64,000 bases of DNA from an uncultured Candidatus Saccharibacteria bacterium (GTDB lineage Bacteria > Patescibacteriota > Saccharimonadia > Saccharimonadales > JACDBH01): contig CAZXYN010000002.1 of assembly GCA_964644965.1 (NCBI GenBank), forward strand, positions 67,075 through 131,074, in the 5' to 3' direction. The position numbers were made by a program, and so were the translations under genes. Shown here in pieces: positions 1,168 to 28,602 of this stretch. A model generated the notes under the pieces. The model did no database searches. It was not told the DNA's origin and saw nothing but the letters and a program-made list of their open reading frames with translations. Every line of letters begins with the position of its first letter. The first letter of the stretch is position 1.

Positions 1168-1244
1168 CGGGGTGTGGCGCAGTTGGCTAGCGCGCGCGGT
1201 TTGGGACCGTGAGGTCGAAGGTTCGAGTCCTTTCACCCCGACCA
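1168..1244 (+). tRNA. tRNA-Pro (anticodon TGG)
   Basis: Cloverleaf by eye: acceptor CGGGGTG/CACCCCG, D-arm GCGC-AGTTGGCTA-GCGC, anticodon loop TTTGGGA, T-arm GAAGG-TTCGAGT-CCTTT, encoded ACCA. Coordinates cross-checked against ORF 1209..1445, which reads through it. Confidence 0.9.
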
Positions 1245-1252
1245 ATCAAAGA

Positions 1253-1277
1253 GTCCGGCTTTATGCCGGGCTTTTTG
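1253..1277 (+). terminator. intrinsic terminator after tRNA-Pro
   Basis: CCGGC-TTTAT-GCCGG hairpin followed by GCTTTTT. Confidence 0.6.
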
Positions 1278-1404
1278 ATTGGATATGGTAGAGGGCTCGA
1301 ACCGATAGGCATAAATGTCCAGTGGACATTTATGTTTTCCTTGCTTGGCCGAGAAAATGATTTATCACTTTTCGAGCAACTAGTTCGAGTCCTTTCACCC
1401 CGAC
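1278..1404 (+). repeat. tRNA-flanking element P, ending in a 22-nt copy of the tRNA-Pro T-loop-to-acceptor end
   Basis: 1383-1404 (GTTCGAGTCCTTTCACCCCGAC) is identical to 1221-1242 inside tRNA-Pro. The body holds an inverted T-loop box (GGTTCGAGCC on the minus strand). It also holds the core TCGAACCGATAGGC-hairpin-GTTTTCCTTGCTTGGCCG (1297-1351), which is shared with the element at 23448-23502. Confidence 0.7.
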
Positions 1405-1422
1405 ATAAAATAAGTCAAATAA

Positions 1423-1587
1423 CACTTCTTAAGGCAAGACCTTGAGATTTCGAAGTGCTGCAGATGTTACGGGTACACCCTACGCAACTGGGACAAGGAC
1501 GGTACACTTAAGCTTATACGCATAGGTAAGCGTAAGATACGGCGTTGGAAGAAGCCTGACGTGATTAAGCTTCTTGAAGGCAATTAG
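1423..1587 (+). pseudogene. excisionase/AlpA-like (HTH_17-type) DNA-binding protein remnant without a canonical start codon
   Basis: The frame opens after TAA 1420-1422. My translation is HFLRQDLEISKCCRCYGYTLRNWDKDGTLKLIRIGKRKIRRWKKPDVIKLLEGN*. The TLRNW..G.L..IRIG.R.IR......V..LL pattern resembles Xis/AlpA HTH proteins. No ATG, GTG or TTG is present in frame. It sits immediately after the tRNA-Pro end repeat. Confidence 0.35.
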
Positions 1588-1821
1588 TAACACTTGAAGT
1601 ATAGAAAAATTACGGTGTAAATAGTACAATCGTGATAAGCGTTTAACGCCTAGACCTAAACCAAGCAATTGGCATGGTTGATAAATCCATAGAGAAATAA
1701 AAGCTCGTCATGAGTCGCTATTTCTCTATGGTCGGTACTGGAAACGGTATCGGGTAGCTTCGGCTATCGCTCGTGGCGGGCTTTTTATATAGCATCACAA
1801 CTACCTGAAAGGAGATAAGGC

Positions 1822-2376
1822 GTGCAAGCATTAAGGTCAATCGGGAGCACTCTACTGGGTATTGTTATTTTCGTCGGAATTATTATTGCAACAGTTTTGC
1901 TGTTTACTCTAGGTGCTAGATTAGCATTTACTATTCAGCCATTTATCAACTGGCTTGCTGGCGTTCTGTTTATCATAAATATTGTAGCGTTGATTGTGGC
2001 AATAGCGCCAAAAGCAAGGGGCTGGTCTGGTCTGATAATCTACATTTCATCTTATGTATATGGACTAGGAACATGGATTTTCGGTTTAGCGGTTACTCTG
2101 GCGCTCTGGGGCTGGATAGCAGTTATCATTGGTCTTCTTTTGGGTGGTGTCGGTGTTGTACCTATCGGCATGTTGGCCGCAATACTCAACGGAGAGTGGG
2201 GGATATTCTGGACGTTGTTCATAAGTCTAGCTCTGACTTATGGGGCACGTCTAATAGGCACGCTACTAGTGTCCAGTGCTGAAAACCAGCCACATTATGA
2301 TGGAGACGATGTTAGTGATGATGTTATTGACATAGAACCAGGAACACATAAACGAACATGGAAGGACATTGAGTAA
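1822..2376 (+). CDS. multi-pass membrane protein, unknown function; C-terminus ends KRTWKDIE
   Basis: ORF track, 184 aa. GTG start with GGAGA about 9 nt upstream. About 5 hydrophobic helices and an acidic tail. Confidence 0.65.
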   Translation: MQALRSIGSTLLGIVIFVGIIIATVLLFTLGARLAFTIQPFINWLAGVLFIINIVALIVAIAPKARGWSGLIIYISSYVYGLGTWIFGLAVTLALWGWIAVIIGLLLGGVGVVPIGMLAAILNGEWGIFWTLFISLALTYGARLIGTLLVSSAENQPHYDGDDVSDDVIDIEPGTHKRTWKDIE

Positions 2377-2675
2377 TGACCAAAGAAGCTGACGAGAAAC
2401 ATACGCATAACCAAAACAATGCAGAGTCGCCTAAATCAAGCGTTAGTTCTTTTATTCATGTAGCTGGCTTTGCGGGTGGTTTTTTAATTGGTTTTAGGCT
2501 ATTAAATAACTTAATCATTGGGATAGTTCTTGGAATAATTGGAGGAATTATTACCTCCGGAATTTGGGCATTGTTTACTGATAAAGCAGAGAATGGTACG
2601 AAAAAGCATGACGCCGAAAAAGAAACAATAAGCGAGGGTGAAAGTCAAAGACGAACGTGGAAGGACGTTGAATAA
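2376..2675 (+). CDS. small membrane protein, unknown function; C-terminus ends RRTWKDVE
   Basis: ORF track, 99 aa. Its ATG overlaps the upstream stop (TAATG). Glycine-rich TM pair. Confidence 0.6.
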   Translation: MTKEADEKHTHNQNNAESPKSSVSSFIHVAGFAGGFLIGFRLLNNLIIGIVLGIIGGIITSGIWALFTDKAENGTKKHDAEKETISEGESQRRTWKDVE

Positions 2676-2676
2676 T

Positions 2677-3894
2677 ATGGACATGCCACATACAAAGTTA
2701 CGCCAAAAGTATATTGACGAAATCAAGGTTATTGAGGCGAATATCAAAGATATAGCTAGTGGTGAAGCACCGCAAGCATTGTATGAACACTCACAAAATA
2801 AGCTGGATAAGTTAGCAGAGCATTTTCAGTACGATGAACAGCTCGGAACCGCTAGGTACAAGCTCTATGAACTGCAAGCACTCTTGTATTACTTCCAGAA
2901 CAGAGATGATGACGCATTGGCATTTATACTGCAAGCCGTTGAAATCAAAGGCTCCTCATATAAACGGGCCGAACAACTCATAGCACAGATAGATTCAGCT
3001 CCGGCGGAGAGCCATAACTGGGATAATTATCTGGACCACAATGAAACACCGGCAATAACTAGAGCGAATAGTAACCAGAGGGTCGTATTTTTTCATAAAT
3101 CACCATTAACGGTGGCGTTACTATCATTCATTTCACTCGGGTTATATTCCATATATTGGTCGTATAAACACTGGAAGATTATTCAAGACAGCAAGGGCAA
3201 TAAGCCAGCCTATACAGGTTGGTGGCATTGGGGAGGTAAGTTTAGTGAAAACAAAAGAACATACCCAGTTTGGGCTGCTATTTTCCAGTTATTCTCAATC
3301 TACCCCCTCTTTAAATTGATAAAAATTACGGCTCAAGAGAGTGGCTATGAAAAATTTCGTAAGACGAAGTTTACTGCAACTGGCTACATTATTTTATCCG
3401 CTGCCGTCAACGCTACATGGAGAGCAGAACCAAAGACTACCACTGATTTTGTAACATTTATAATATTCATGGTTCTAATGGGAGCATGTATAGCAGTAAT
3501 ACTGGCTATTGTACAACGTGCAGCGAATGCGCAAAACATATCTGTGCTTGGTAAGCGGCACAAGTTCAAGAGTGTGTTTGTGGGTGAAGTAATCTTTACC
3601 ATTATTGCAGTTGGTTTCAGTGTGTTGGCCATTATTGGTACATACAGCTCAGTCGGCACGGTAGGTTACGAAGGTTTAAGTAACGAAGCAATGGGTGCAT
3701 ATCAGAGAATGGAATCGTTGCGAAGCCAGTATAACGCATGTAGTAGCGACTTGGACGCAAGGCGTGATAACGTTAATATTTATAGCGATTATGAGGTTGA
3801 TTCCTTTAATAGCGACCTGGAAGATTGTGAGAACACAAGACTTAGATTGAACAGCACAGTAGATGAATACAACAGACTTGCGGGGTATGAGTAA
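2677..3894 (+). CDS. membrane protein with helical N-terminal domain and DUF4234-like GLYSIYW transmembrane region
   Basis: ORF track 2638..3894. I prefer the internal ATG at 2677 (MDMPHTK...), just after the upstream stop. Motif LSFISLGLYSIYWSYKHWKII plus further TM helices and an acidic C-terminal domain. Confidence 0.6.
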   Translation: MDMPHTKLRQKYIDEIKVIEANIKDIASGEAPQALYEHSQNKLDKLAEHFQYDEQLGTARYKLYELQALLYYFQNRDDDALAFILQAVEIKGSSYKRAEQLIAQIDSAPAESHNWDNYLDHNETPAITRANSNQRVVFFHKSPLTVALLSFISLGLYSIYWSYKHWKIIQDSKGNKPAYTGWWHWGGKFSENKRTYPVWAAIFQLFSIYPLFKLIKITAQESGYEKFRKTKFTATGYIILSAAVNATWRAEPKTTTDFVTFIIFMVLMGACIAVILAIVQRAANAQNISVLGKRHKFKSVFVGEVIFTIIAVGFSVLAIIGTYSSVGTVGYEGLSNEAMGAYQRMESLRSQYNACSSDLDARRDNVNIYSDYEVDSFNSDLEDCENTRLRLNSTVDEYNRLAGYE

Positions 3895-3910
3895 AGTAAA
3901 GGACTTTTAG

Positions 3911-4417
3911 ATGGAACGACCAAAACAATTTAGAGACCCACAACTTGAGACTTCAGGAGAGATTATTGGATTCTATCCGAGGGAGTTCTATACATTTGAT
4001 AATTTTGCTGCTTTCCAAGTAGATTACATGGATTTTCGGTGGCCTACTTCTGAGCACGCTTATCATGCAGCGAAGTTTATTGATACTGCTCCTGAAGTTG
4101 TTGAGATGTTAAAAGAAGCACGATCCCCTCACGATGCACTAGCTATTGCGACTGAACACAAACCTAGACGTGCAGAAGATTGGGACGAACGCAAAGTCGC
4201 AGTAATGTATGAGATATGTCGTCTAAAGCTAGTTCAGAATGTTTATGTGCTTCAGAAGCTAGAGTTAAGCGGAGACCTAGATATAGTTGAAGACTCGCCT
4301 AAAGATGATTTTTGGGGTTGGGGACCAAACCGTGATGGCAGAAATGAACTAGGGAAAATCTGGATGCGACTTCGGGAAGAACTTAGGTCTGGCTTAATAG
4401 AGACAAATACGGAATAG
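3911..4417 (+). CDS. NADAR (DUF1768/YbiA-like) family protein
   Basis: ORF track, 168 aa. FYTFDNFAAFQVDYMDFRWPTSEHAYHAAKF and DDFWGWG...G.N.LG..LM match the NADAR signature. Confidence 0.8.
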   Translation: MERPKQFRDPQLETSGEIIGFYPREFYTFDNFAAFQVDYMDFRWPTSEHAYHAAKFIDTAPEVVEMLKEARSPHDALAIATEHKPRRAEDWDERKVAVMYEICRLKLVQNVYVLQKLELSGDLDIVEDSPKDDFWGWGPNRDGRNELGKIWMRLREELRSGLIETNTE

Positions 4418-4575
4418 TTTACTCATAGCACAAGGTTTTCGACTTGAGCCTCTCTGCGTTTTGAGTTACAAGCATTCCTGAGTTCATTAAGTACACTAAC
4501 AGCTTGAGAGTAGTCTTCAAATAGACTATTAAGCAGTTCGTGTAGGGTATGTTCGATCCGACCAAACTTAGCCAC

Positions 4576-5217
4576 CTATTTCTTACGAGTTGCGAAGAAT
4601 ATAGCTACAAAGCTTATGATTAACGCAGCACCTGCAACATAGATTGCGATATCTGCCATTTGACTATCGTCTTCTGCTGCCATCTCCTCGTTACCATCGT
4701 GACTATCGGTTGACGCACCTTCAACAACATTTGTAACGGAGAGAGGTCCCGTATTCTCGCCTGCTCCATGGCTATCACCGCTAGATGCCTGATCCCAGGC
4801 AACAACTGTGCCATCAGAGTATGTTTGATAGGCTTTCCATTCTATCTCGCCAGGAACGTCTGGAGCCTTTGCACTGAACGTAAAGTCATCACGCAGCCCA
4901 TCTGCTATCTCACCATCGCTCCATGTAATTGACGTGACCTGTGCTGTCTCGCCTTCGCCAGATTTTTCGGTTGCGATTGTCCAGCCTGGTTTAACGGTTG
5001 GCTTAACACTCGTTACCGCTTCGGGAATCAGTAGCTTGATGGCCGTAGTCGGTACTTCCTTTTCGTTCGGTACACTCACTATAAAAGTCTGGTAGCTGGC
5101 TGTTGCTACCTCTGCTGGCTTCACGGTTACGTGTGCAGCAACGGTTGCGCTGAACAGAGAAACAAATACCCCAGTTATTGCTAATATTGATAGAAATTGC
5201 TTTAAAACTCTCATCAA
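4576..5217 (-). CDS. YcnI-family (DUF1775) copper-binding protein, membrane anchored
   Basis: ORF track, 213 aa. Signal peptide ends ...VAAH, giving mature N-terminus HVTVKPAEV.... Contains ..PGWT... and a C-terminal TM helix plus KK, typical of YcnI. Confidence 0.8.
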   Translation of the reverse strand: MMRVLKQFLSILAITGVFVSLFSATVAAHVTVKPAEVATASYQTFIVSVPNEKEVPTTAIKLLIPEAVTSVKPTVKPGWTIATEKSGEGETAQVTSITWSDGEIADGLRDDFTFSAKAPDVPGEIEWKAYQTYSDGTVVAWDQASSGDSHGAGENTGPLSVTNVVEGASTDSHDGNEEMAAEDDSQMADIAIYVAGAALIISFVAIFFATRKK

Positions 5218-5247
5218 ATCCCCTTATTTTTTACCAGTCTAACATAC

Positions 5248-6559: not shown

Positions 6560-6585
6560 TTCAACTCATTATATAGGACATAGCT

Positions 6586-7266: not shown

Positions 7267-7293
7267 CCCCTGAAAATAGGCTATAATAACACT

Positions 7294-8251: not shown

Positions 8252-8406
8252 TATGGGGCGAGTGATGGGAATCGCCCACATTCTGCGGGCCCGAAACTTC
8301 ACGGTGTGAAACAAGTTTCACCCGGAAGGTTTCCTTGCGAAATGCCACAGGCATTTCTCACCCACGACCTTAGGCGTGGGTTCAAGTTCCATTGACCAGC
8401 CCATAA
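8252..8406 (-). repeat. tRNA-flanking element H, ending in a 23-nt copy of the tRNA-His 3' end
   Basis: 8252-8274 is identical to 8439-8461 (T-loop CGATT through CCA plus 2 nt). 8361-8371 repeats the tRNA-His variable/T-stem segment at 8464-8474. An ~86 nt hairpin-rich insert lies between these two pieces. An inverted, well-formed T-arm/acceptor/CCA-like end (GTGGG-TTCAAGT-TCCAT-TGACCAG-C-CCA) lies on the plus strand at about 8374-8403. Confidence 0.7.
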
Positions 8407-8429
8407 ACAAAAAACGACCCTTTGGGTCA
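8407..8429 (-). terminator. intrinsic terminator after tRNA-His
   Basis: Read on the minus strand: GACCC-AAA-GGGTC followed by TTTTTTG. Confidence 0.65.
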
Positions 8430-8440
8430 TTTCTTATTTA

Positions 8441-8518
8441 TGGGGCGAGTGATGGGAATCGAACCCACGACCTTCGGAACCACAACCCGACGCTCTAACC
8501 AACTGAGCTACACCCGCC
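8441..8518 (-). tRNA. tRNA-His (anticodon GTG) with encoded G-1 and CCA
   Basis: Reverse complement is G-GCGGGTG TA GCTC AGTTGGTTA GAGC G TCGGG TTGTGGT TCCGA AGGTC GTGGG TTCGATT CCCAT CACTCGC C CCA. Coordinates cross-checked against ORF 8434..8718. Confidence 0.9.
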
Positions 8519-8708
8519 TCGTCGGAACGTAATATTGTGGTTCCTGTATTGCCGACAAAACAAGTTTGCTCGGACAATACTAGAAACCTCAATAAGTTTC
8601 CTCCTCTTAAGTTTTCCAAACAGAACAAGTTCTTGGTTTGAAAAACTTGAAAAGCCCAAAAAGGGCAAGAACAGGGGTAATTATATCTGTTTGCGGTTGT
8701 TTTTGCAA
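8519..8708 (-). promoter_or_regulatory. promoter plus conserved structured leader of the tRNA-His unit
   Basis: On the minus strand: TTGCAA (8703-8708), 17 nt, TATAAT (8680-8685), then TACCCCTGTT. Leader modules are CAAACCAAG-hairpin-TGTTTGG..AAGAGGAGG (about 8598-8645), a hairpin with loop GCAAACTTGTTTTG (about 8545-8580), and TCCGACGA abutting the tRNA. Confidence 0.55.
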
Positions 8709-8822: not shown

Positions 8823-9374
8823 ATGGCAAAAAGATCAAATTCATCAGATAAATCAGTCCAAAAAATCTTCATGGTGCTGGCGGCAATTGTAGCTGCAGCA
8901 CTATTTGTGATTGGCGGGTTGGCACTGTGGGCGCATAACTTTACAACCAACATGGTGCGTACTGAGCTGGCGGCGCAAAAGATTTATTTTCCACAAGCCG
9001 GGGCGCCGAACTTTTTGCCAGAAGATTATCCAGAATTGCAGAAGTATGCTGGCCAGCTGGTAGACAACGGCGAAAAGGCAAAAGCCTATGCCAATGGCTA
9101 TATCGGTCGCCATCTGCATAACACGGCCGATGGCAAAACTTATGCGGAGGTCAGTACTCTGGCCAGGCAAAACCCGAATGACGAAACGCTGCAACAACAG
9201 AGAGAAAGCTTACTACAAGGAGAGACTTTGCGGGGTATTCTTCTTGGCACGGGGTATGCCTTTGGTACGATAGGCATGCTGGCGGGTATCGCGGCCTGGG
9301 TGTTGTTTGGTCTTGGTGCTGTGCTGGTGCTAGTAAGCATATTTTATGCCAAGCGTTACTACGGACGAGGCTAG
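8823..9374 (+). CDS. membrane protein, unknown function (N- and C-terminal TM helices)
   Basis: ORF track, 183 aa. AAGGAAAG upstream of the ATG. Confidence 0.55.
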   Translation: MAKRSNSSDKSVQKIFMVLAAIVAAALFVIGGLALWAHNFTTNMVRTELAAQKIYFPQAGAPNFLPEDYPELQKYAGQLVDNGEKAKAYANGYIGRHLHNTADGKTYAEVSTLARQNPNDETLQQQRESLLQGETLRGILLGTGYAFGTIGMLAGIAAWVLFGLGAVLVLVSIFYAKRYYGRG

Positions 9375-9975
9375 AGTAGTGACACTCAAAGGAATCACAT
9401 TAAAGCAGTCGCTGCCATACATCATGATTGCGGCTGGTGTGGTGGGCCTGTTAGCCTCGCTGATGCTGACGCATGACAAAATCCAGGTGCTGCAAAACCC
9501 AGATTATGATCCGTTCTGTAACATTAACCCGATATTTAGCTGTCGTTCGGTAATGGTAACCGAACAGGCAAGTCTGTTGGGGCTGCCTAACACGGTGTTT
9601 GGTGTCATAGGGTTTACAGCGCTGGTGACATTGGGGTTTTTGCTGGCTGCTGGCGCCCAAATAAAACGTTGGTTGTGGCTGGTTGTGCAACTGTCGGCTA
9701 CGGTTGGCGTAATATTTATGCACTATTTATTCTTCCAGGCAGTGTATAGAATCAATGCAATTTGCCTGTGGTGTTTTGCTACTTGGATAGTGGTGATCCC
9801 GGTGTTCTGGTACATCACACTTTATAACCTGCGCGAAGGGCATATCAGGCTAAAGAATGATAAAATTGCAACTTTTTTGCAAAAACACCACGGCAATATG
9901 TTGCTTGCCTGGTACGGTGTTATTTTTATGATTTTGCTGGTTGAGTTCTGGTATTACTGGGAGACTTTGATTTGA
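9346..9975 (+). CDS. vitamin K epoxide reductase (VKOR)-family protein
   Basis: ORF track, 209 aa (alternative starts GTG 9379 or ATG 9424). Loop cysteines CNINPIFSC and the CLWC redox motif in a 4-5 TM protein. Confidence 0.7.
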   Translation: MPSVTTDEARVVTLKGITLKQSLPYIMIAAGVVGLLASLMLTHDKIQVLQNPDYDPFCNINPIFSCRSVMVTEQASLLGLPNTVFGVIGFTALVTLGFLLAAGAQIKRWLWLVVQLSATVGVIFMHYLFFQAVYRINAICLWCFATWIVVIPVFWYITLYNLREGHIRLKNDKIATFLQKHHGNMLLAWYGVIFMILLVEFWYYWETLI

Positions 9976-10010: not shown

Positions 10011-10169
10011 ATTGGTACCCCGGGAGGGAATTTGACTCACAAGTCAAAATGCTCTGCATTTTTGCTCGCGAGCCCGGCGCGGCGTGCATCGGGTGCCGAT
10101 GCACAGGCCTTACGCCTGTTCGATTCCCCGCAGGCCAAGCAGTTGGCCTGCTGTCTCTGGGTACCAATT
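10011..10169 (-). repeat. tRNA-flanking element R, ending in a 21-nt copy of the tRNA-Arg(TCT) 3' end
   Basis: 10011-10031 is identical to 10199-10219 (ATTCCCTCCCGGGGTACCA plus 2 nt, read on the minus strand). The GC-richer body has several hairpins (TGCATCG-GGTGC-CGATGCA; ACAGGC-CTTA-GCCTGT; CAGGCCAA-GCAG-TTGGCCTG). It also has an inverted T-loop box TGTTCGATTCC and a plus-strand ...GGGTACCA end. Confidence 0.7.
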
Positions 10170-10193
10170 CAAAAGCCCCACTTTCGTGAGGCT
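10170..10193 (-). terminator. intrinsic terminator after tRNA-Arg(TCT)
   Basis: Read on the minus strand: AGCCTCAC-GAAA-GTGGGGCT followed by TTTTG. Confidence 0.6.
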
Positions 10194-10200
10194 CATGAAT

Positions 10201-10277
10201 TGGTACCCCGGGAGGGAATCGAACCCCCGACCTGTGGGATAGAAGCCCATTGCTCTAATCCGCTGAGCTACCGGGGC
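10201..10277 (-). tRNA. tRNA-Arg (anticodon TCT)
   Basis: Reverse complement is GCCCCGG TA GCTC AGCGGATTA GAGC A ATGGG CTTCTAT CCCAC AGGTC GGGGG TTCGATT CCCTC CCGGGGT A CCA. Coordinates cross-checked against ORF 10032..10292. Confidence 0.9.
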
Positions 10278-10461
10278 GTCGTCGAAGTGTGATGGTGAGA
10301 TAATCCTAGTAGCGACAAAAAATTTGCTCACTACTAGTAATTATCTCACTAAGCCTTCTCCTCTCAAAACCCCAAACAGCAGCCAGCTGCTTGGTTTGGT
10401 GTTTTGTGCAAGAACATTCCTTAACAGGGGTGATTATACCATGTTATAACTGTTATTGTAA
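10278..10461 (-). promoter_or_regulatory. promoter plus conserved structured leader of the tRNA-Arg(TCT) unit
   Basis: On the minus strand: TTACAA (10456-10461), 17 nt, TGGTATAAT (-10 at 10433-10438), then CACCCCTGTT. Leader modules are ACCAAACCAAG-hairpin-TGTTTGGGGTTTTGAGAGGAGA (about 10353-10402), a long hairpin with loop GCAAATTTTTTG (about 10295-10349), and CACTTCGACGAC abutting the tRNA. Confidence 0.55.
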
Positions 10462-12299: not shown

Positions 12300-12374
12300 T
12301 GGTGCGGGTGGGGGGAATCGAACCCCCGTCTCAAGTTTGGAAAACTTGCATACTAACCGTTGTACTACACCCGC
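12300..12374 (-). tRNA. tRNA-Gly (anticodon TCC)
   Basis: Reverse complement is GCGGGTG TA GTAC AACGGTTA GTAT G CAAGT TTTCCAA ACTTG AGAC GGGGG TTCGATT CCCCC CACCCGC A CCA. Coordinates cross-checked against ORF 12166..12378. Confidence 0.9.
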
Positions 12375-12500
12375 ATAAAGTCTGAATTGTTAAAGGGTTC
12401 GATTCCGAATCGACTCACCTTCGGCGAGCCCCGAACTTCTGCTTTACAAGCATAGCTTGCAAGTGAAGATTCGTTTCCGACTGCTTTTGAGCAGTTCTCA
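12375..12500 (-). repeat. tRNA-flanking element G (body), between a tRNA-Gly 5' pseudo-copy and the intact tRNA-Gly
   Basis: Read on the minus strand it starts TGAGAAC directly after the pseudo T-stem. It contains GAAGTTCGGGGCTCGCCGAAGG and the palindrome TCGATTC-G-GAATCGA. The T-loop box GGTTCGATTCC is on the plus strand. Confidence 0.6.
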
Positions 12501-12552
12501 CCCCGTCTCAAGTCTCCGAAAACTTGCATACTAACCGTTGTGCTACACCCGC
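12501..12552 (-). pseudogene. tRNA-Gly-like 5' fragment (acceptor to T-stem 5' strand) with an 8-nt anticodon loop
   Basis: Reverse complement is GCGGGTGTAGCACAACGGTTAGTATGCAAGTTTTCGGAGACTTGAGACGGGG. It differs from tRNA-Gly only by one D-stem change (GTAC to GCAC, which breaks a pair) and the loop TTTCCAA to TTTCGGAG. Homology stops exactly at the T-loop. An extended -10 (TGATATAAT, 12577-12582) lies upstream. Confidence 0.65.
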
Positions 12553-12650
12553 GATAAATCCTTGGCAACAGGGGTAATTATATCACTTTAAGGTAATAAG
12601 TAAAACAGCCCCGCTAAAGTTTGCCGAGGCTGTTGCGACCAGTTTTTTAT

Positions 12651-22527: not shown

Positions 22528-22602
22528 ATCCGTCTAAGCATTCAAAAAACCGGTCGCAATGACCGGTTTTTTGTTTTCATAGAGTAAAACTCTAGAGTCT
22601 AG

Positions 22603-23269: not shown

Positions 23270-23385
23270 GCAACACTCCTTTTACATTACTTATCTAGTA
23301 TATACCCAGTGCTGAGAATACGCATAACAAATTAGCTAACAATACTACCAATGAAAAAACCGGTCACAAGGACCGGCGCTTTCAT

Positions 23386-23508
23386 TGGTACACCCGGCAG
23401 GATTCGAGTTATTCTGCGCCTGGCTAAAATGCAAGCATTAGCCGAGGCGGCCAAGCAAGGAAAACTCGGATACCCACTGGGTATCCTCGCCTATCGGTTC
23501 GAATCAAT
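23386..23508 (-). repeat. tRNA-flanking element A2 behind tRNA-Arg(TCG), ending in a non-identical tRNA-like 3' end
   Basis: Read on the minus strand it ends ...CTCGAAT CCTGC CGGGTGT A CCA (23386-23408). 23448-23502 is the reverse-strand equivalent of the tRNA-Pro element core 1297-1351: the 14-nt and 18-nt flanks are identical and the hairpin differs by paired changes on both strands of the stem. Confidence 0.65.
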
Positions 23509-23554
23509 CAAAATAAAAGTGGCGGTATAACGACAAAAGTCATTAGACCGCCAC
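23509..23554 (-). terminator. intrinsic terminator abutting tRNA-Arg(TCG)
   Basis: Read on the minus strand: GTGGCGGT...ACCGCCAC followed by TTTTATTTT. Confidence 0.6.
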
Positions 23555-23630
23555 TGGTACCCGCGGAGAGATTCGAACTCCCGACTTTCTGGTCCGAAGC
23601 CAGACGCTCTATCCACTGAGCTACGCGGGC
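23555..23630 (-). tRNA. tRNA-Arg (anticodon TCG)
   Basis: Reverse complement is GCCCGCG TA GCTC AGTGGATA GAGC G TCTGG CTTCGGA CCAGA AAGTC GGGAG TTCGAAT CTCTC CGCGGGT A CCA. Confidence 0.9.
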
Positions 23631-23640
23631 ATATGAATGA

Positions 23641-23988: not shown

Positions 23989-24098
23989 AATATAATTATA
24001 ACACGCAAAGTGTTCCGAATACTGTTAATTGTTTGTTCTTAAGCTTTGGGATTTTAATACCACAATTCTTTAACATTTTATCTGTACAATGAGTAGGT

Positions 24099-25385: not shown

Positions 25386-25854
25386 ATTCATAGCAGCAAT
25401 AGACGAAAAAAATGGGCTAGCAAAAAACGGCGTTATTCCATGGGATTTACCGACTGACAAGCAGTTTTTTCGCGACTCAATATCTAGCGGTATTGGGCTG
25501 ATGGGCTGGGGTACATTTGTGAGCAACGGTAAACGTCCATTCCCGACAAGTCCGCGAAATGTTGTGATCACTAGTAGAGACGTGTCTTTTGATGGCGTGG
25601 AGATAATCCATAATCTAGATGAATTTATAAATAATACCGACGAGGATATTTGGGTGATTGGTGGTGGTAATGTTTTTGAACAGTTATTACCCAAGGCAAC
25701 TCAGCTATACATCACTAGAGTCTCTGTAGACTACGGCTGCGATGTTTTTTTTCCAGAGTTTGAGACAGGTTTTGAGCTAGTAAGTTCTAGTGAAACCAAT
25801 CAAGAAAACGGTATAGAGTTTTGCTTTCAAATCTGGGAGCCTACTCCAAAATAA
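25369..25854 (+). CDS. folA: dihydrofolate reductase
   Basis: ORF track, 161 aa. IAAIDEKNGLAKNGVIPWDLPTDKQFFRD and VIGGGNVF motifs. Overlaps folC by 17 nt. Confidence 0.8.
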   Translation: MSRQIKFIAAIDEKNGLAKNGVIPWDLPTDKQFFRDSISSGIGLMGWGTFVSNGKRPFPTSPRNVVITSRDVSFDGVEIIHNLDEFINNTDEDIWVIGGGNVFEQLLPKATQLYITRVSVDYGCDVFFPEFETGFELVSSSETNQENGIEFCFQIWEPTPK

Positions 25855-27154
25855 CTGTTGCTAGGCCTAGGAAAACTAGGAAACCAAGTACGTCGGTAGC
25901 GGTTGTTATAAATATCGTTGCCGAGGCTGCTGGATCTTTGCCGAGCTTCGACATAATTAGCGGCACAAGTGTACCAAAGAATCCAGCTACAATCATGTTG
26001 ATAACCATGGCAGTACCTAATATGAACGCAATCTTAGCATCCTTGTTAACGATCAATACAACACTCGCCACTAATACACCATTGATAAGTCCATTGACCA
26101 TACCAGCAAAGACTTCATTTCGTAGGGCTCGCCAAGCTGTTTTGAGTTCTATTTGTTTGAGAGATATACCCCTTACCAGCACAGCCAGTGTTTGGGTAGC
26201 TGCGTTACCACCCATGCCAGCAACAATTGGCATATATACAGCTAGCAGGACATAAGCAGACAGAGTGTCTTCGAACTGGCTGACCACAAATGACGCTAGG
26301 AACGCTGTACCGAGGTTTATAATCAGCCAGCGGTAGCGGTTTTTTACTTTGGCTCTTGCCGGATCGGTGACAGTTTCTTCTTCTCGGATACCGGCGAAGT
26401 CGTAGAGCGATGATGCTTCGGTTTCTTGCATTAGACGAAGAATATCATCTGAATAAATAATACCCATGACTGTGCCGCTATCATTTAACACTGCAACCTT
26501 TGCATGCGGGTGAGTCATGAACATGTCGGTCACCTCGTCGTGGCTGGCAGCATAGGAAATCGATGGGATTCGCTTGATGTACTTATTGATTACATCTGTC
26601 TTTCGGGCAAAGCCAAGTTCATGTCCGGGCAGAAAACCAGCAAGCTTGCCTTGGTCATTCATAGCCAGTACTACTGGCGGTCTACCAGTACGCTTCTCGT
26701 GTTGTTTGAACTTCTTTGCGACCGTCATGATGTTGTCGTGTGTAGTGACCTGAATATAGTCTAGGGTCATAAGTCCAGCGGCTGTTTCGGCATCAAATTC
26801 TAGAAGGGTAGAGATAGATTCTTTTAGTTCTGCGCTAACTAGTAACAAGACTTTCTCACGCTTTTTGCGGGTTAGAATCTGCAGAATGTCGGTTGATTCA
26901 TCGGGATCAACAGTCTCAATAATGCCAGCCAAATCCTCTTCAGGTACATGCATCAATATATCCCGACGTACAGTTTTGGTTAGCGAACGCAGTAGCTCAA
27001 TGCGCTTATCAATGGGTAATTCCAAAAATGTCTGTATGCGGGTATCTTTGTGAAACAGAATATCGCTCACAAGCTTTGGGCTGATAGAAACGCTCAGCCG
27101 CTTGGGAAGTTTTATGTCTGTAATTTTTATATCTTTGATTTCGCGTATGTTCAT
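25841..27154 (-). CDS. mgtE: magnesium transporter MgtE
   Basis: ORF track, 437 aa. MgtE N-domain, CBS pair, and the TM domain with GMGGNAATQT and ATDVLGFLVFLG. Confidence 0.9.
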   Translation of the reverse strand: MNIREIKDIKITDIKLPKRLSVSISPKLVSDILFHKDTRIQTFLELPIDKRIELLRSLTKTVRRDILMHVPEEDLAGIIETVDPDESTDILQILTRKKREKVLLLVSAELKESISTLLEFDAETAAGLMTLDYIQVTTHDNIMTVAKKFKQHEKRTGRPPVVLAMNDQGKLAGFLPGHELGFARKTDVINKYIKRIPSISYAASHDEVTDMFMTHPHAKVAVLNDSGTVMGIIYSDDILRLMQETEASSLYDFAGIREEETVTDPARAKVKNRYRWLIINLGTAFLASFVVSQFEDTLSAYVLLAVYMPIVAGMGGNAATQTLAVLVRGISLKQIELKTAWRALRNEVFAGMVNGLINGVLVASVVLIVNKDAKIAFILGTAMVINMIVAGFFGTLVPLIMSKLGKDPAASATIFITTATDVLGFLVFLGLATVILE

Positions 27155-27259
27155 GACGCTCTAGCCCACTTAAGCGTTAGTTCTTTACACGAATTATAGC
27201 AGTAAAACCCCAGACTACGTAATCTAGTAGCCTGGGGTTATATCAGATGGAGCCCTTAT

Positions 27260-27739
27260 TTATTCAGACGATTCGCCGACGGCATCAGTGTTGAAGTCTA
27301 CAAACTGTACGTAGTATTCCCAGTTTGCTTCTGCTTCGTCGTCTAGAGCCTGAGCCTTCTCGACAGCAGCTTTTACAGCTTCTTCGGTGATAGATACCTC
27401 TTGACCTTCATTGATAGCAGGGAAGCCAGCATCGCTTGTCAAAAATGTTTCGGCGGCTACAATTTCCGCTAAGCTTAGATCTACCTCTTCGTAGTAGCCA
27501 TAAGTCTGGATGCTCTTTCGAGCGATTTTTGTGAATGAATCACCGCGTTGAGCCGTGTAGGTGAAGCGTGAAGTTTCCTCATCTGATTCTTCTTCTGGCT
27601 GTTCGTCTGTCTGAGCGATTTCCTCACCGTGATCTTCGCCTTCATGAGCAGTTGTAACCGATGGATTTACGGATACCAGCACAAATGCACCTGCAATGGC
27701 TAGGACTGATAGCGCGGAGATTCTTAATAGATATTTCAT
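27260..27739 (-). CDS. secreted acidic protein with a LysM-like segment
   Basis: ORF track, 159 aa. Signal peptide. YTAQRGDSFTKIARKS resembles a LysM core. Terminator hairpin at about 27215-27250. Confidence 0.5.
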   Translation of the reverse strand: MKYLLRISALSVLAIAGAFVLVSVNPSVTTAHEGEDHGEEIAQTDEQPEEESDEETSRFTYTAQRGDSFTKIARKSIQTYGYYEEVDLSLAEIVAAETFLTSDAGFPAINEGQEVSITEEAVKAAVEKAQALDDEAEANWEYYVQFVDFNTDAVGESSE

Positions 27740-27877
27740 TTATTACCCTCTTGTCCCCACCGCTTACGTTTTTAGTATGGAACAATTGTAACAATGCTTA
27801 CGCATAAAGAATAGTGTAAATTTTGCAATTATATTTTAGATAACTGTATTCCAAGAGTAGAGCCGATAGTAGCCAAA

Positions 27878-28282
27878 TTAAAACCATTCCATCTCTCGTA
27901 TATGAGTTATACCTTGAACTGCAACAACTGCTGGATGGGCATAAAATACCGATTGCCTTGCCTCATGTGGGTTTACAACGATTATTTGTTTTTCTATATT
28001 CGTTTTACGACTTGCGATAGCAGCGCCAAATTCAATAGCCGCTCCTAAGATACTGTCACCAGGAAAAAGAATCATTACGTCGCTGCCGTATGCGGCATCT
28101 ATCATGGCTTGTGCAGCTGGTGATGAGGTATCGAGGTGGCTCATGTATGGTATGGGCAATTTGTCCGACTGCCACCACTTTTCTATTACTGCATGCCCGC
28201 GTTGCTCTAGCTCGCTGGCAAACTCTCCAATTGATAATTCGTCCGCATTTAACTTTCCTGCCAAATATATATCTTTTGCCAT
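27878..28282 (-). CDS. nucleoside 2-deoxyribosyltransferase-like protein
   Basis: ORF track, 134 aa. KDIYLAGK...SDVMILFPGDSILGAAIEFGAAIA follows the NDT-like pattern. Confidence 0.5.
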   Translation of the reverse strand: MAKDIYLAGKLNADELSIGEFASELEQRGHAVIEKWWQSDKLPIPYMSHLDTSSPAAQAMIDAAYGSDVMILFPGDSILGAAIEFGAAIASRKTNIEKQIIVVNPHEARQSVFYAHPAVVAVQGITHIREMEWF

Positions 28283-28345
28283 ACCTTAATTTAACCATGA
28301 ATGAAAAAAGACCATAAAATGGTCTTTTTAAGCATAACTAGTATG

Positions 28346-28525
28346 GGAGGGCCAGGAGGGACTCGCCTTGCGACAATTCAAAAATATAATTGTTAACGCA
28401 ACCCTTTGATATGCCATTGGCATATCACGGGCAGGGTGCGGGGAATGCTCCAAGCATTCCCGTTCAAGTCCCTTCCTATCCACGTACCATATAAAAAATG
28501 CCACCACTTGGTGACATTCTTTATA
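28346..28525 (-). repeat. tRNA-flanking element K (includes the proximal terminator), ending in a 20-nt copy of the tRNA-Lys 3' end
   Basis: 28346-28365 is identical to 28527-28546 (CGAGTCCCTCCTGGCCCTCC on the minus strand); one extra C then precedes the final CA. The body has hairpins GATATGCCA/TGGCATATC and GGGAATGCT-CCA-AGCATTCCC, an inverted T-loop box CGTTCAAGTCC, and a plus-strand ...CACGTACCA end. The proximal terminator (28493-28516) pairs with a G-U only when read in tRNA sense. A second terminator lies at about 28300-28330. Confidence 0.7.
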
Positions 28526-28602
28526 TGGAGGGCCAGGAGGGACTCGAACCCTCGACATTCTGCTTAAGAGGCAGACGCTCTAACCAGCTGAGCTACTGGC
28601 CC
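28526..28602 (-). tRNA. tRNA-Lys (anticodon CTT)
   Basis: Reverse complement is GGGCCAG TA GCTC AGCTGGTTA GAGC G TCTGC CTCTTAA GCAGA ATGTC GAGGG TTCGAGT CCCTC CTGGCCC T CCA. Coordinates cross-checked against ORF 28328..28558. Confidence 0.9.

What the first reader, a model, noticed from the sequence alone, without database searches (positions are those of the whole stretch)
1168..28602. Six of seven tRNA genes carry a 125-185 nt element closed by a copy of that tRNA's own T-loop-to-CCA end
There are exact direct repeats, each beginning inside the T-loop:
- tRNA-Pro: 1221-1242 = 1383-1404 (22 nt).
- tRNA-His: 8439-8461 = 8252-8274 (23 nt).
- tRNA-Arg(TCT): 10199-10219 = 10011-10031 (21 nt).
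- tRNA-Lys: 28527-28546 = 28346-28365 (20 nt, then a 1-nt slip).

Two loci differ. tRNA-Gly shows the mirror case, with a 52-nt copy of its 5' part that stops at the T-loop (12501-12552). tRNA-Arg(TCG) has a non-identical tRNA-like 3' end (23386-23408). Only tRNA-Glu is clean.

In the five loci where the element trails the tRNA, the order in tRNA sense is tRNA, intrinsic terminator, structured body, repeat, second intrinsic terminator. At tRNA-Gly the pseudo-copy and body come first, behind their own -10 element, with the intact tRNA last. All six bodies contain an inverted T-loop box (GTTCGA or GTTCAAG on the opposite strand). Four of the six (Pro, Arg-TCG, His, Lys) share a hairpin with apex CCWRTGG.

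Repeats that start in the T-loop are what T-loop-targeting tyrosine recombinases leave as attL/attR. But the inserts are far too small to code for anything, each matches a different tRNA, and no integrase is in the window. The options I see are:
- att-bounded, cis-mobilizable relics;
- a miniature tRNA-parasitic element family;
- a functional small RNA. A transcript from the opposite strand would carry 20-23 nt perfectly antisense to the neighbouring tRNA's 3' end.

I do not know a described element with this architecture.
Basis: partly seen in the sequence, partly recalled or inferred. Interest (0 to 1): 0.8.

Follow-up and report, generated by a model that had tools for sequence, protein, structure and literature searches.

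The report
Structured half-tRNA modules flanking Saccharibacteria tRNAs
Six of the seven tRNA genes in this Saccharibacteria (TM7) genome piece carry a roughly 190-base add-on, made of a copied half of the tRNA joined at its T-loop to a folded non-coding domain, and that domain belongs to a widespread, apparently undescribed and mobile family.

Summary
All four exact repeats sit at the stated coordinates, and apart from one coding-type repeat they and the tRNA-Gly 5' copy are the only close direct repeats of 18 nt or more in the window. The window is a Saccharibacteria chromosome.

Each unit contains:
- an intact tRNA;
- a partial copy of it, either T-loop to CCA ("3'-type") or positions 1-54 ("5'-type", tRNA-Gly);
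- a structured body joined at about T54/T55;

The His and Gly bodies belong to one family, type A (about 88 nt, three hairpins). I found 103 further copies in metagenome contigs. In these, 93.5% of pair cells are paired against 28-50% in slid controls, and all 38 pairs show compensatory changes. A conserved G-U pair places the fold on the tRNA-sense strand. Every nearby tRNA in the same orientation except two more distant ones that lie beside a nearer same-strand tRNA. At least 15 tRNA identities are involved. There is no Rfam match.

Close relatives have empty sites at His, Arg(TCT) and Pro. Near-identical bodies occur at different tRNAs, and stacked decayed copies exist.

The best reading (about 0.5) is a non-coding, tRNA-gene-specific mobile or duplicative structured element. 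Its spreading mechanism is inferred, not shown. The rivals are a host-functional tRNA-half chimeric RNA and integrase att relics. An antisense sRNA and a T-loop intron are not supported.

The parts
1168..1244 (+). Intact tRNA-Pro(TGG).
   Evidence: ARAGORN and Rfam.
1245..1404 (+). 3'-type unit with a type B body. Its parts are terminator 1 (1245-1283); a clamp and inverted T-box TGGTAGAGGGCTCGAACCGATAGGC (1286-1310); a hairpin with CCAGTGG apex (1311-1333); a conserved linker GTTTTCCTTGCTTGGCCG (1334-1351); a second hairpin; and the distal copy G53 to C74 (1383-1404).
   Evidence: It shares its body with the Arg(TCG) unit and with L089. The clamp pairs with the distal T-loop in the fold.
8441..8517 (-). 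Intact tRNA-His(GTG).
8252..8440 (-). 3'-type unit with a type A body. Read in tRNA sense, its parts are terminator 1 (8440-8401); the inverted tRNA 3' piece or clamp (about 8400-8372); a copy of the variable loop, T-stem 5' strand and T54 (AAGGTCGTGGGT); the type A domain; and the distal copy C56 to CCA plus 2 nt (8274-8252). Terminator 2 lies at 8247-8223.
   Evidence: Model R1 hit at 8252-8371, 116 bits, E 2.6e-32. Also.
10201..10277 (-). Intact tRNA-Arg(TCT).
10011..10200 (-). 3'-type unit with a degenerate body. Its parts are terminator 1, an inverted 3' piece carrying an extra hairpin, further hairpins, what looks like a type A remnant (GAGCAAAAATGCAGAGCATTTTG...GTGAGTC), and the distal copy A58 to CCA plus 2 nt (10031-10011).
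   Evidence: The type A remnant is my reading of the sequence. R1 gives no significant hit here. The orthologous sites in L003 and L005 are empty.
12300..12374 (-). Intact tRNA-Gly(TCC).
12375..12604 (-). 5'-type unit with a type A body. Its parts are a promoter (12604-12577); a pseudo-tRNA-Gly covering positions 1-54 with an altered anticodon loop (12552-12501); the type A domain; the hairpin GATTC-G-GAATC; the clamp GAACCC (12400-12395); and a 20-nt spacer leading into the real tRNA.
   Evidence: Model R1 hit at 12391-12510, 115 bits. The same unit is present at the orthologous L003 locus.
23555..23630 (-). Intact tRNA-Arg(TCG).
23386..23554 (-). 3'-type unit with a type B body. Both its clamp (TCGAACCGATAGGC) and its distal 3' end (CTCGAATCCTGCCGGGTGTACCA) fit a tRNA-Arg(GCG)-type gene rather than the adjacent tRNA. 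Terminator 2 lies at 23377-23359.
28526..28602 (-). Intact tRNA-Lys(CTT).
28346..28525 (-). 3'-type unit with a variant body containing a TGCCAATGGCA hairpin. Its parts are terminator 1, an inverted diverged tRNA-Lys 3' piece, four hairpins, and the distal copy C56 to C75 (28365-28346).
   Evidence: The only type A match is weak and on the opposite strand (24 bits). The 3' flank TTATGCTTAAAA is shared with tRNA-Lys units in L096 and L101.
1029..1167 (+). Structured 5' leader "L" of tRNA-Pro. This is a separate conserved module and not part of the finding as given. Sister copies lie at 8518-8655 (-) and 10278-10413 (-).
   Evidence: Promoters lie just upstream.

Best explanation
These are copies of a family of small, non-coding, highly structured elements specific to tRNA genes in Saccharibacteria.

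**What a unit is (shown)**
- A unit is a chimera of three parts: a copied half of the resident tRNA, a folded body, and a short clamp.
- The copied half runs either from the T-loop to CCA (downstream of the gene) or from the promoter and position 1 to T54 (upstream of the gene).
- The body is joined at T54/T55.
- The clamp is complementary to the copied T-arm, so the T-stem 5' strand and the T-loop are held in a helix.
- The intact tRNA next to the unit remains the working gene.

**What the comparative data show (shown)**
- Body families (A, B, C and variants) move between tRNA identities over evolutionary time.
- They are gained and lost between related genomes.
- They pile up and decay beside a single tRNA.
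- The folded strand is the tRNA-sense strand.
- In upstream units, a consensus promoter match upstream of the half copy (Gly unit) and no terminator seen before the tRNA suggest the body is transcribed ahead of it.

**How new units arise (inferred)**
- I think they form by copy-choice (template switching) or short-homology recombination at the hairpin-prone T-arm and terminator sequences.
- Such an event would duplicate everything from the T-loop to the end of the transcription unit and paste a body in from another unit.
- No element-encoded enzyme would be needed.
- The hairpins would be selected because they promote this process, or because they keep the extra half-tRNA from interfering with maturation of the real tRNA.
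For: **Anatomy.** The repeats are exact and non-random.

**A real fold on the sense strand.**
- The type A model R1 found 103 copies in 80 metagenome loci.
- 93.5% of pair cells are paired, against 28-50% when partners are slid. All 38 pairs have double changes, and 725 cells are compensatory.
- One G-U pair is conserved in 87 of 93 sequences.

**Link to tRNA genes.**
- Of the 80 copies analysed, 53 have a tRNA within 400 nt. Every nearest tRNA lies on the same strand; two copies (L107, L089) also have a more distant opposite-strand tRNA.
- The tRNA either ends about 65-94 nt upstream of the body or starts about 12-90 nt downstream of it. At least 15 identities are involved.

**Regular junctions.**
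- The body is 87-91 nt.
- The 5' flank ends in the T-stem 5' strand plus T54.
- The 3' flank starts 18-20 nt from the tRNA end.

**Mobility and turnover.**
- L003 (71% amino-acid identity in the neighbouring gene) lacks the His and Arg(TCT) units but keeps the Gly unit.
- L005 lacks the Pro, His and Gly units and carries a 5'-type unit at Arg(TCT).
- Bodies 0.90-0.93 identical sit at different tRNAs and in both unit types.
- The two bodies flanking a single tRNA can be only 0.57-0.60 identical.
- L048 has three upstream pseudo-units of increasing decay, the tRNA, and then a downstream unit. L110 has bodies in both the D-arm and the T-loop of one pseudo-tRNA.
- The type B clamp fits an Arg(GCG)-type T-arm, yet type B sits at the Pro, Arg(TCG) and Gly(GCC) genes.

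**Duplication model.** In young units the direct repeat includes the whole terminator (L091, L102, L104).

**No enzyme seen.** I found no integrase, transposase or reverse transcriptase among the window ORFs I inspected by eye or scanned against Pfam (ten ORFs).

**Not described.** Rfam has no match, and six literature searches found nothing.
Against: - No movement event, intermediate or enzyme is shown. The template-switch mechanism is inference only.
- The Gly unit is kept at the orthologous locus in a relative whose spacer sequence is saturated with changes. The pseudo-copy keeps the same odd anticodon loop there. That looks like constraint on a resident copy, which a purely selfish element would not need.
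- In about 15 of 22 downstream units the identity to the tRNA stops sharply at or within 2 nt of CCA, while the terminators have diverged. This suggests constraint or gene conversion on the 20-nt copy.
- Within one genome the bodies are usually only 60-80% identical, so there has been no recent burst.
- Downstream units lie behind a terminator and show no promoter, so their RNA may hardly be made. Two of the three hairpins have 3-nt loops. The selected fold could therefore be single-stranded DNA rather than RNA.
- The metagenome set was collected with a pattern that covers hairpin 1 and the adjacent junction, so conservation in that region is biased.
Confidence: 0.5

Rival explanations
1. The units are host-functional chimeric RNAs. 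A tRNA half fused to a structured domain would be made alongside the tRNA and would act in tRNA biology. Possible roles are a processing or folding helper, a decoy for a tRNA-binding enzyme or toxin, a sensor, or a guide for an unknown protein that uses the 20-54 nt tRNA segment for specificity.
For: - The fold is selected on the tRNA-sense strand.
- 5'-type units have a promoter and lie in the pre-tRNA leader.
- The Gly unit and its altered anticodon loop are conserved between the window and L003 even though the spacer has diverged.
- Seven loci share the same modified pseudo tRNA-Gly(GCC) unit.
- The distal 3' copies stay identical to the tRNA with a sharp edge at CCA.
- The clamp is kept complementary to the local T-arm in many units.
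Against: - Close relatives have the units at different tRNAs or not at all.
- Only about 5 of roughly 50 tRNAs in the related genomic loci carry a unit, against 6 of 7 here.
- Arrays contain visibly decayed copies.
- Degenerate bodies are tolerated, as at Arg(TCT) in the window.
- 3'-type units sit behind a terminator with no promoter of their own.
- Bodies of unrelated sequence (A, B, C) occupy the same position.
Confidence: 0.25
2. The units are relics of classical integrative elements such as phages or integrative and conjugative elements. A tyrosine integrase would have recombined an attP carrying the tRNA 3' part with the T-loop of the gene, and nearly all of the element would later have been deleted. 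What remains would be attL in the tRNA and attR as the distal copy.
For: - The geometry matches. There is an intact tRNA plus a displaced partial copy starting in the T-loop, which is a known integrase sublocation (my own knowledge, Williams 2002; partial tRNA copies at island ends are described in PMC9897764).
- The flank of the distal copy is the ancestral one. The window His distal flank TACAAT equals the flank of the L005 tRNA-His, and the Arg(TCT) terminator 2 resembles the single terminator in L005.
- L101, L096 and L043 have genes between successive units.
Against: - The units are uniformly about 190 nt, with a fixed layout and no integrase remnant.
- The same body family serves 15 or more tRNA identities. 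Each would need its own attP and integrase specificity.
- Mirror-image 5' units duplicate the promoter plus positions 1-54.
- The body interrupts the T-loop itself and shows RNA-type covariation.
- Bodies also lie in D-arms and in non-tRNA hairpins.
- Young units duplicate the terminator as well.
- The viral contig collection has no match to the type A pattern.
- No integrase turned up among the window ORFs read by eye or the ten scanned against Pfam.
Confidence: 0.1
3. The bodies are introns or intervening sequences in the T-loop of tRNA genes. They would be removed from the RNA to give a working or two-piece tRNA.
For: - The body is joined exactly at T54/T55, with U before the junction. In 27 copies this U pairs with G in the clamp.
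- The clamp aligns both exon ends on one strand, much like an internal guide sequence.
- Patescibacteria are rich in group I introns in tRNAs (PMC13011429).
Against: - Removing the body rebuilds an ARAGORN-detectable tRNA in only 5 of 121 copies, and those five are pseudo-copies.
- One half of the tRNA is always missing, and an intact tRNA lies next door.
- The body is 88 nt with three simple hairpins, and the last base is not a conserved G.
- There is no match to the group I intron model or to any ribozyme model.
- The published Patescibacteria tRNA introns lie in the anticodon loop.
Confidence: 0.04
4. An opposite-strand small RNA is made from the body and carries 20-23 nt antisense to the 3' end of the tRNA.
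For: - The antisense strand also folds well in single-sequence predictions.
- The Lys body gives a weak type A match on the opposite strand (24 bits).
Against: - The conserved G-U pairs would be C-A mismatches on the other strand.
- Every nearest tRNA is co-oriented with the body; two copies also have a more distant opposite-strand tRNA.
- The promoter-like sites found point in the tRNA direction.
- 5'-type units contain no tRNA 3' end at all.
Confidence: 0.04

Closest known systems
attL/attR partial tRNA duplications left by integrase-mediated integration of phages, ICEs and genomic islands
   Same: There is an intact tRNA plus a direct repeat of its 3' part that begins in the T-loop. The displaced copy keeps the ancestral flank. 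Units can accumulate in tandem at one tRNA.
   Different: - The inserts are about 190 nt rather than kilobases.
- No integrase is present.
- One body family serves many tRNA identities.
- A mirrored 5' form exists.
- The body shows RNA-type covariation and splits the T-loop.
- Young copies duplicate the terminator as well.
Small non-autonomous structured repeats of reduced or compact genomes: MITEs, Rickettsia palindromic elements, pneumococcal BOX/RUP and Neisseria Correia elements (from my own knowledge)
   Same: They are short, non-coding, multi-copy and strongly folded. They show patchy presence among relatives and no encoded enzyme. They insert in places where the host tolerates them, including RNA genes.
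   Different: - There are no terminal inverted repeats and no short fixed target duplication.
- The fold is a three-hairpin domain with conserved loops rather than one long hairpin.
- The units are tied to the T-loop of tRNA genes, with a copied tRNA half and a target-complementary clamp.
Transposed non-canonical tRNA introns and split tRNA genes of Archaea (Thermoproteales, Nanoarchaeum; from my own knowledge)
   Same: Related short inserts occur at non-canonical tRNA positions, including the T-loop, in many different tRNA genes. Half-tRNA genes exist.
   Different: - The host is bacterial.
- No bulge-helix-bulge motif is evident.
- The interrupted copies are never complete.
- An intact gene is always adjacent, so no splicing is required.
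Group I introns in Patescibacteria tRNA genes (PMC13011429)
   Same: The host phylum is the same. Structured RNA sits inside tRNA genes, a U precedes the junction, and a guide-like strand pairs with the exon ends.
   Different: - The published introns lie in the anticodon loop, are 200 nt or longer, and self-splice.
- Here the body is 88 nt with no group I core, no conserved terminal G and no Rfam hit, and it is not flanked by both exons.
Guide-plus-scaffold RNAs of transposon-associated nucleases (TnpB and IscB omega RNAs; from my own knowledge)
   Same: A structured scaffold of about 90-150 nt is directly followed (3'-type) or preceded (5'-type) by about 20 nt or more that match a specific genomic target.
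   Different: - No TnpB, IscB or Cas gene lies next to any unit in the window.
- The "guide" is identical to the sense strand of the tRNA and would target the host's own gene.
- No Rfam omega RNA or HEARO family matches.

Membership tests
Integrase-type integrative element (att sites in a tRNA gene) | Direct repeat of the tRNA 3' segment starting in the T-loop or anticodon loop and bounding the insert | tested here: met
   The repeats are exact, 20-23 nt long and start at positions 53-58.
Integrase-type integrative element (att sites in a tRNA gene) | A tyrosine or serine recombinase gene, or its remnant, and cargo between attL and attR | tested here: not met
   The inserts are 160-190 nt and have no real ORF. 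No recombinase was found among the window ORFs I inspected or scanned. The rest of the genome was not available.
Integrase-type integrative element (att sites in a tRNA gene) | One element family targets one or a few tRNA identities through a matching attP | tested here: not met
   Type A occurs at 15 or more identities and in both 5' and 3' forms.
Group I intron | Conserved catalytic core (P3-P8) detectable with the Rfam Intron_gpI model, and a terminal G | tested here: not met
   There is no hit at E values up to 1-10. The last body position is G in 47 copies and C in 38. The body is 88 nt.
Group I intron | Interrupts a gene whose two exons are both present and rebuild the RNA after removal | tested here: not met
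   A tRNA is rebuilt in 5 of 121 copies, and all five are pseudo-copies.
Archaeal-type tRNA intron or split tRNA | Bulge-helix-bulge motif at the junctions and a splicing endonuclease in the genome | not tested
   By eye the junction is a three-way junction on a continuous clamp strand rather than a bulge-helix-bulge. I made no formal motif search and no genome-wide protein search.
MITE or IS200/IS605-derived palindromic element | Terminal or subterminal inverted repeats, a short fixed target site or duplication, and a cognate transposase somewhere in the genome | tested here: inconclusive
   There are no terminal inverted repeats. Hairpins 1 and 3 differ in sequence. The junction always follows G-T. 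The transposase could not be tested without the whole genome.
Integron attC site | R''/L''-L'/R' boxes with core GTTRRRY, a single-strand hairpin, cassette arrays and IntI | tested here: inconclusive
   - The clamp and T-loop form a hairpin with a variable centre.
- Unit-and-gene arrays exist in L101 and L096.
- The T-loop box GTTCRAW departs from the core at position 4.
- The centre is a conserved domain.
- No IntI was seen in the window.
Any Rfam 15 family | Score at or above the family gathering threshold | tested here: not met
   In and around the units only the tRNAs pass the threshold. Nothing credible appears even at E values up to 10.
TnpB/IscB/Cas guide RNA | Adjacent or genome-encoded RNA-guided nuclease, with the scaffold matching a known omega RNA or tracrRNA family | tested here: not met
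   The neighbouring genes are housekeeping or small membrane proteins. There is no Rfam match.

The most novel reading that the evidence does not exclude
The units may be programmable RNAs. The type A domain (and its B and C counterparts) would be a scaffold or small catalytic RNA. The fused tRNA half and the T-arm clamp would give it specificity for one tRNA or one tRNA gene. Two roles are conceivable: exchanging or repairing tRNA halves at the T-loop, or directing an unknown protein to T-loop sequences, including those of tRNA-integrating invaders. Either would be a new class of tRNA-directed guide RNA or ribozyme. It would also explain why the 20-nt copy stays identical to the tRNA.
Probability: 0.12. 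Interest if true: 0.92.

Novelty: new variant of a known kind. Interest (0 to 1): 0.72.

Why it matters
Saccharibacteria and other Patescibacteria have tiny genomes with one gene per tRNA and few recognised mobile elements. Here 6 of 7 tRNA genes in one stretch carry a conserved structured module, and the main body family is abundant in environmental metagenomes yet absent from Rfam.

If the units are selfish, they are a new way for a non-coding element to colonise essential RNA genes without killing them. They would do so by always duplicating the part of the gene they split, and they would need no enzyme of their own.

If they are functional, they are a new class of tRNA-half chimeric RNA.

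There are practical consequences either way:
- The units create partial tRNA copies that can mislead tRNA annotation.
- The only contigs found carrying the identical FolD end about 160 nt upstream of folD, beside the tRNA-Lys unit, which may point to assembly breaks there.
- They provide presence/absence markers for strain typing.
- Alignment A3 and model R1 are ready to seed an Rfam family.

Tried and rejected
- **Phage or plasmid origin of the window.** There is no megablast match to phage records. The ORFs are housekeeping genes and the relatives are Saccharibacteria MAGs.
- **Known RNA family.** Rfam at the gathering threshold and at E values up to 1-10 gave nothing for the bodies.
- **T-loop intron.** I spliced out every type A body over a range of 3' ends and ran ARAGORN. 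Only 5 of 121 gave a tRNA call, and all five were pseudo-copies.
- **Viral carriers.** The type A pattern has no hit in viral contigs.
- **A long stem between the inverted piece and the distal copy as a selected feature.** I counted G-U against A-C non-Watson-Crick pairs. Only 4 units were alignable, giving 7 against 8, so the test was uninformative and I dropped it.
- **One family for all six bodies.** Pairwise scores split them into type A (His, Gly) and type B (Pro, Arg-TCG), with Lys and Arg(TCT) unclassified. With filters off, R1 finds only His and Gly strongly, Lys weakly on the other strand, and nothing significant at Pro, Arg(TCG) or Arg(TCT).
- **More type B copies.** A BLAST of the bodies against all the DNA I held found only one further unit, in L089.
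- **Host RNA genes around the non-tRNA type A copies.** Rfam recognised none.
- **Integrase or transposase in the window.** None was found among the ORFs I read or the ten scanned.
- **HDV-like, hammerhead or hatchet ribozyme.** I rejected these on helix order and the absence of Rfam hits. This rests on reasoning only.

Full report
**1. What the window is**

The ORFs are bacterial housekeeping genes: SHMT, MurA, MurB, FolC, FolD, DHFR, MgtE, pyruvate kinase and PGK. The VKOR-like protein at 9346-9972 has its best relatives (50-78% identity) in Saccharibacteria/Saccharimonadales MAGs. There is no phage match. The window is therefore a chromosomal piece of a TM7-type Patescibacterium with about 45% GC.

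**2. Checking the observation**

- ARAGORN and Rfam give the seven tRNAs at the stated coordinates.
- All four exact repeats are confirmed.
- In a scan for close direct repeats of at least 18 nt, the tRNA repeats make up five of only six families in 64 kb.
- The Gly pseudo-copy, the non-matching Arg(TCG) 3' end, the inverted T-loop boxes and the CCWRTGG hairpins are all there.
- All six bodies fold 2.2-5.5 sd below shuffled sequence, on either strand.
- In three of the four loci the repeats run a few bases past CCA, so they are copies of DNA and not of mature tRNA.
- I see no convincing second terminator after the Pro repeat.

**3. Anatomy, re-read**

In tRNA sense, a downstream ("3'-type") unit reads as follows:
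- the tRNA;
- terminator 1, whose stem usually pairs with the CCA;
- an inverted, diverged copy of the tRNA 3' part running back through the T-loop and the T-stem 5' strand;
- a short A-rich loop;
- a direct copy of the variable loop, T-stem 5' strand and T54;
- the body;
- T55/C56 through to CCA;
- terminator 2.

An upstream ("5'-type") unit, as at tRNA-Gly, is the circular permutation. It reads promoter, tRNA 1-54, body, positions 55-61, a small loop, a clamp complementary to 49-61, a 20-45 nt spacer that often carries a -10-like box, and then the real tRNA.

**4. The bodies are families**

Pairwise scores group the bodies as follows:
- His, Gly, L003-Gly and L005-Arg form type A.
- Pro and Arg(TCG) form type B.
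- L008-Asp and L025-Met share a third body, type C.
- One further type B unit lies after a tRNA-Gly(GCC) in L089.
- Lys carries a variant body with the same TGCC-AAT-GGCA hairpin.
- Arg(TCT) looks to me like a type A copy that lost its middle. The model does not score it, so this is my reading only.

**5. Type A is a real, widespread, structured entity**

- A model built from four copies found one more copy in the relatives (L025).
- A 26-nt pattern from hairpin 1 gave no viral hit.
- The model then found 103 copies in the first 80 loci.
- On that alignment 93.5% of pair cells are standard pairs, against 28-50% when partners are slid. All 38 pairs have changes on both sides, 725 cells are compensatory, and 0 of 500 shuffles reach any measure.
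- The alignment was fitted to the model, and the copies were collected with a pattern over hairpin 1 and the junction. Hairpins 2 and 3, which lie outside that pattern, covary just as strongly.
- A G-U pair in hairpin 3 is kept in 87 of 93 sequences, and G-U is common elsewhere. The selected fold is therefore on the tRNA-sense strand.
- The consensus is GT|GA, then hairpin 1 (apex AGU), GCAAG, a long hairpin 2 (apex CUUG), and hairpin 3 (loop GAA).
- No Rfam family matches, even at E values up to 10.

**6. Link to tRNA genes**

- Of the 80 copies analysed, 53 have a tRNA within 400 nt. Every nearest tRNA lies on the same strand; two copies (L107, L089) also have a more distant opposite-strand tRNA.
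- In 25 clean 3'-type cases the body is 87-91 nt. The flank before it ends with the T-stem 5' strand plus T54, and the flank after it matches the last 18-20 nt of the tRNA, mostly perfectly.
- In 5'-type cases the upstream flank matches tRNA positions 1 to 50-65, sometimes with the leader and promoter as well. L048 matches from -49 to +50.
- Many copies with "no tRNA nearby" still have a tRNA-like 3' end and terminator upstream.
- Type A also sits in the D-arm of pseudo tRNA-Gly(GCC) in seven loci and of a pseudo tRNA-Leu (L110). It also sits in the loop of non-tRNA hairpins in L057, L118, L053/L109 and L122.
- The common rule is insertion in a hairpin loop right after G-T.

**7. It is not an intron of working genes**

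Deleting the body over a range of end points rebuilds a detectable tRNA in only 5 of 121 copies, and those five are pseudo-copies. One half is always missing and is replaced by the clamp, and an intact gene is adjacent. The published Patescibacteria tRNA introns are group I introns in the anticodon loop (PMC13011429).

**8. Turnover and mobility**

- At the orthologous loci, L003 lacks the His and Arg(TCT) units but has the Gly unit.
- L005 lacks the Pro, His and Gly units but has a 5'-type type A unit at Arg(TCT), where the window has a 3'-type unit.
- In the related genomic loci only about 5 of roughly 50 tRNAs carry a partial copy, against 6 of 7 in the window.
- Bodies 0.90-0.93 identical occur at different tRNA identities and in both unit types. 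Examples are L104 (Lys, 3'-type) against L045 (Leu, 5'-type), and L047 (Glu, 3'-type) against L052 (Ser, 5'-type).
- The two bodies beside one tRNA can be only 0.57-0.60 identical.
- L048 shows three upstream pseudo-units of increasing decay, the tRNA-Gln, and then a downstream unit.
- The type B clamp TCGAACCGATAGGC is complementary to an Arg(GCG)-type T-arm. The distal end of the Arg(TCG) unit is also Arg(GCG)-like. Yet type B now sits at the Pro, Arg(TCG) and Gly(GCC) genes.
- The body, together with part of its clamp, therefore moves independently of the tRNA-derived part.

**9. How units may form (inference)**

- Young units (L091, L102, L104) have terminator 1 identical to terminator 2, so the direct repeat runs from the T-loop through CCA and the whole terminator.
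- In the window the terminators have diverged, but the distal copy keeps the ancestral flank. The His flank TACAAT matches L005, and the Arg(TCT) terminator 2 resembles the only terminator in L005.
- The L005 terminator already extends as a palindrome into the acceptor end (ATTGGTACCC). This shows that terminator hairpins here grow inverted copies of the tRNA end.
- Both unit types equal a tandem duplication of everything from the T-loop to the end of the transcription unit, with the clamp and body at the join. A Campbell-type insertion of a small circle by homology would give the same result.
- I therefore favour template switching or short-homology recombination at the T-arm and terminator hairpins, with the body copied in from another unit using the G-T and T-C microhomology of the T-loop. 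None of this is shown.
- I found no transposase, integrase or reverse transcriptase among the window ORFs I read or scanned. The rest of the genome is unknown.

**10. What argues for a function instead**

- The Gly unit is conserved with L003 although the spacer next to it is saturated, and both pseudo-copies share the odd anticodon loop.
- The Gly(GCC) D-arm unit, with its modified anticodon arm, recurs in seven loci.
- The 20-nt distal copies stay identical to their tRNA, with an edge at CCA in about 15 of 22 units, while the neighbouring sequence has diverged.
- 5'-type units lie downstream of a consensus promoter match (Gly unit) with no terminator visible before the tRNA, so they are probably transcribed ahead of it.
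- A milder reading is that the clamp and the fold are kept so that the spare half-tRNA cannot mispair with the real precursor.
- I cannot decide between constraint, gene conversion and recent origin with the data at hand.

**11. RNA or single-stranded DNA**

Co-orientation with the tRNA, the promoters and the G-U pairs fit RNA. Against that, 3'-type units lie behind a terminator with no promoter, and two of the three hairpins have 3-nt loops (AGU, GAA). A fold selected in single-stranded DNA is therefore not excluded. In the window, orientation follows the tRNA (Pro on +, the others on -) within one GC-skew trend.

**12. Comparison with known systems**

- The closest in geometry are the att duplications of integrative elements (PMC9897764).
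- The closest in lifestyle are small structured repeats such as MITEs and Rickettsia palindromic elements.
- The closest in position are transposed archaeal tRNA introns and Patescibacteria group I introns.
- The closest in layout are scaffold-plus-guide RNAs.
- The units fail a tested defining feature of four of the seven families I considered and are inconclusive or untested for the other three (MITE/IS200-605, integron attC, archaeal BHB intron); details are in the membership table.
- Six literature searches found no description.

**13. Verdict**

- The finding is real and not ordinary.
- I rate it a new variant of a known kind: a small non-coding structured repeat with an unprecedented tRNA-half, T-loop and clamp architecture.
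- My confidence that it is a mobile or duplicative element is about 0.5.
- I put about 0.25 on a host-functional chimeric RNA.
- I put about 0.12 on the most novel reading, a tRNA-directed guide or catalytic RNA.

**14. Seen in passing**

- A second conserved structured module, a roughly 140-nt 5' leader "L", precedes tRNA-Pro, tRNA-His and tRNA-Arg(TCT). It recurs before tRNAs in other Saccharibacteria.
- A LOOT RNA, a tmRNA and an odd GC-rich block are also present.

Noticed in passing
window 1029-1167 (+), 8518-8655 (-), 10278-10413 (-); also L003 2424-2564 and 4367-4508, L008 17879-18021, L084 3036-3167: A conserved structured 5' leader of about 140 nt ("L") lies between a sigma-70-like promoter and the first base of tRNA-Pro, tRNA-His and tRNA-Arg(TCT).
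- It starts with a CCAAACC...GTTTGG hairpin, followed by GAGAGGAG.
- A long hairpin with a GCAAACTTGTTTTG apex follows.
- It ends with TTACACTTCGACGAVG directly at the tRNA.
- In five sequences, 28 of 49 pairs show compensatory changes.
- Model R2 finds it elsewhere; I checked that it sits before a tRNA only in L003 and L008.
- There is no Rfam match.
   Followed up: partly
window 1653-1768 (+): A LOOT RNA (RF03000, 75.7 bits) lies about 250 nt downstream of the Pro unit and ends in a terminator-like hairpin.
   Followed up: no
window 52431-52832 (+): A tmRNA gene is present (RF00023, 67.8 bits). I did not check whether it carries a unit or an island.
   Followed up: no
window about 36900-39200: A GC-rich block (52-54% GC against about 45% elsewhere) has long overlapping ORFs on both strands, none with a Pfam hit. 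It also contains a short CCGCCGACGACC-type repeat family at 38640-38938.
   Followed up: partly
L101 1-1900; L096 11200-13300; L067 5100-8200; L043 11000-13200: These loci hold arrays in which a unit is repeated two or three times with one small gene between units.
- Each unit is a pseudo-tRNA remnant, a terminator, a clamp, a type A body and a tRNA-Lys or tRNA-Gly 3' part.
- Only L043 has an intact tRNA-Lys at the head of the array.
- In L101 the flanks of two units are nearly identical while their type A bodies differ by many compensatory changes.
   Followed up: partly
L001 and L002 (Logan contigs carrying the identical FolD): Both contigs end about 160 nt upstream of folD, next to the tRNA-Lys unit. 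This may mean that short-read assemblies break at these units.
   Followed up: no
window 28300-28345; L096 and L101 after each tRNA-Lys 3' part: A conserved TTATGCTTAAAA box, inverted in some copies, lies between the tRNA-Lys 3' copy and the following terminator in several genomes.
   Followed up: no
L003 4033-4119 (-), upstream of tRNA-Arg(TCT): The short sequence CCCC-TAA-GGGGTGAG-TCGAATC-T-GATTCGAACCCC looks like a 5'-type unit from which the type A body has been almost precisely deleted.
   Followed up: no
L053 and L109 (5' of the type A copy); L122 (3' of the type A copy): A conserved 25-nt piece, GGGGCGGACCGRGCGGCAGGACCCG, lies next to type A copies that are not in tRNA contexts. It occurs in either orientation relative to the body. 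Rfam recognises no host RNA there.
   Followed up: partly
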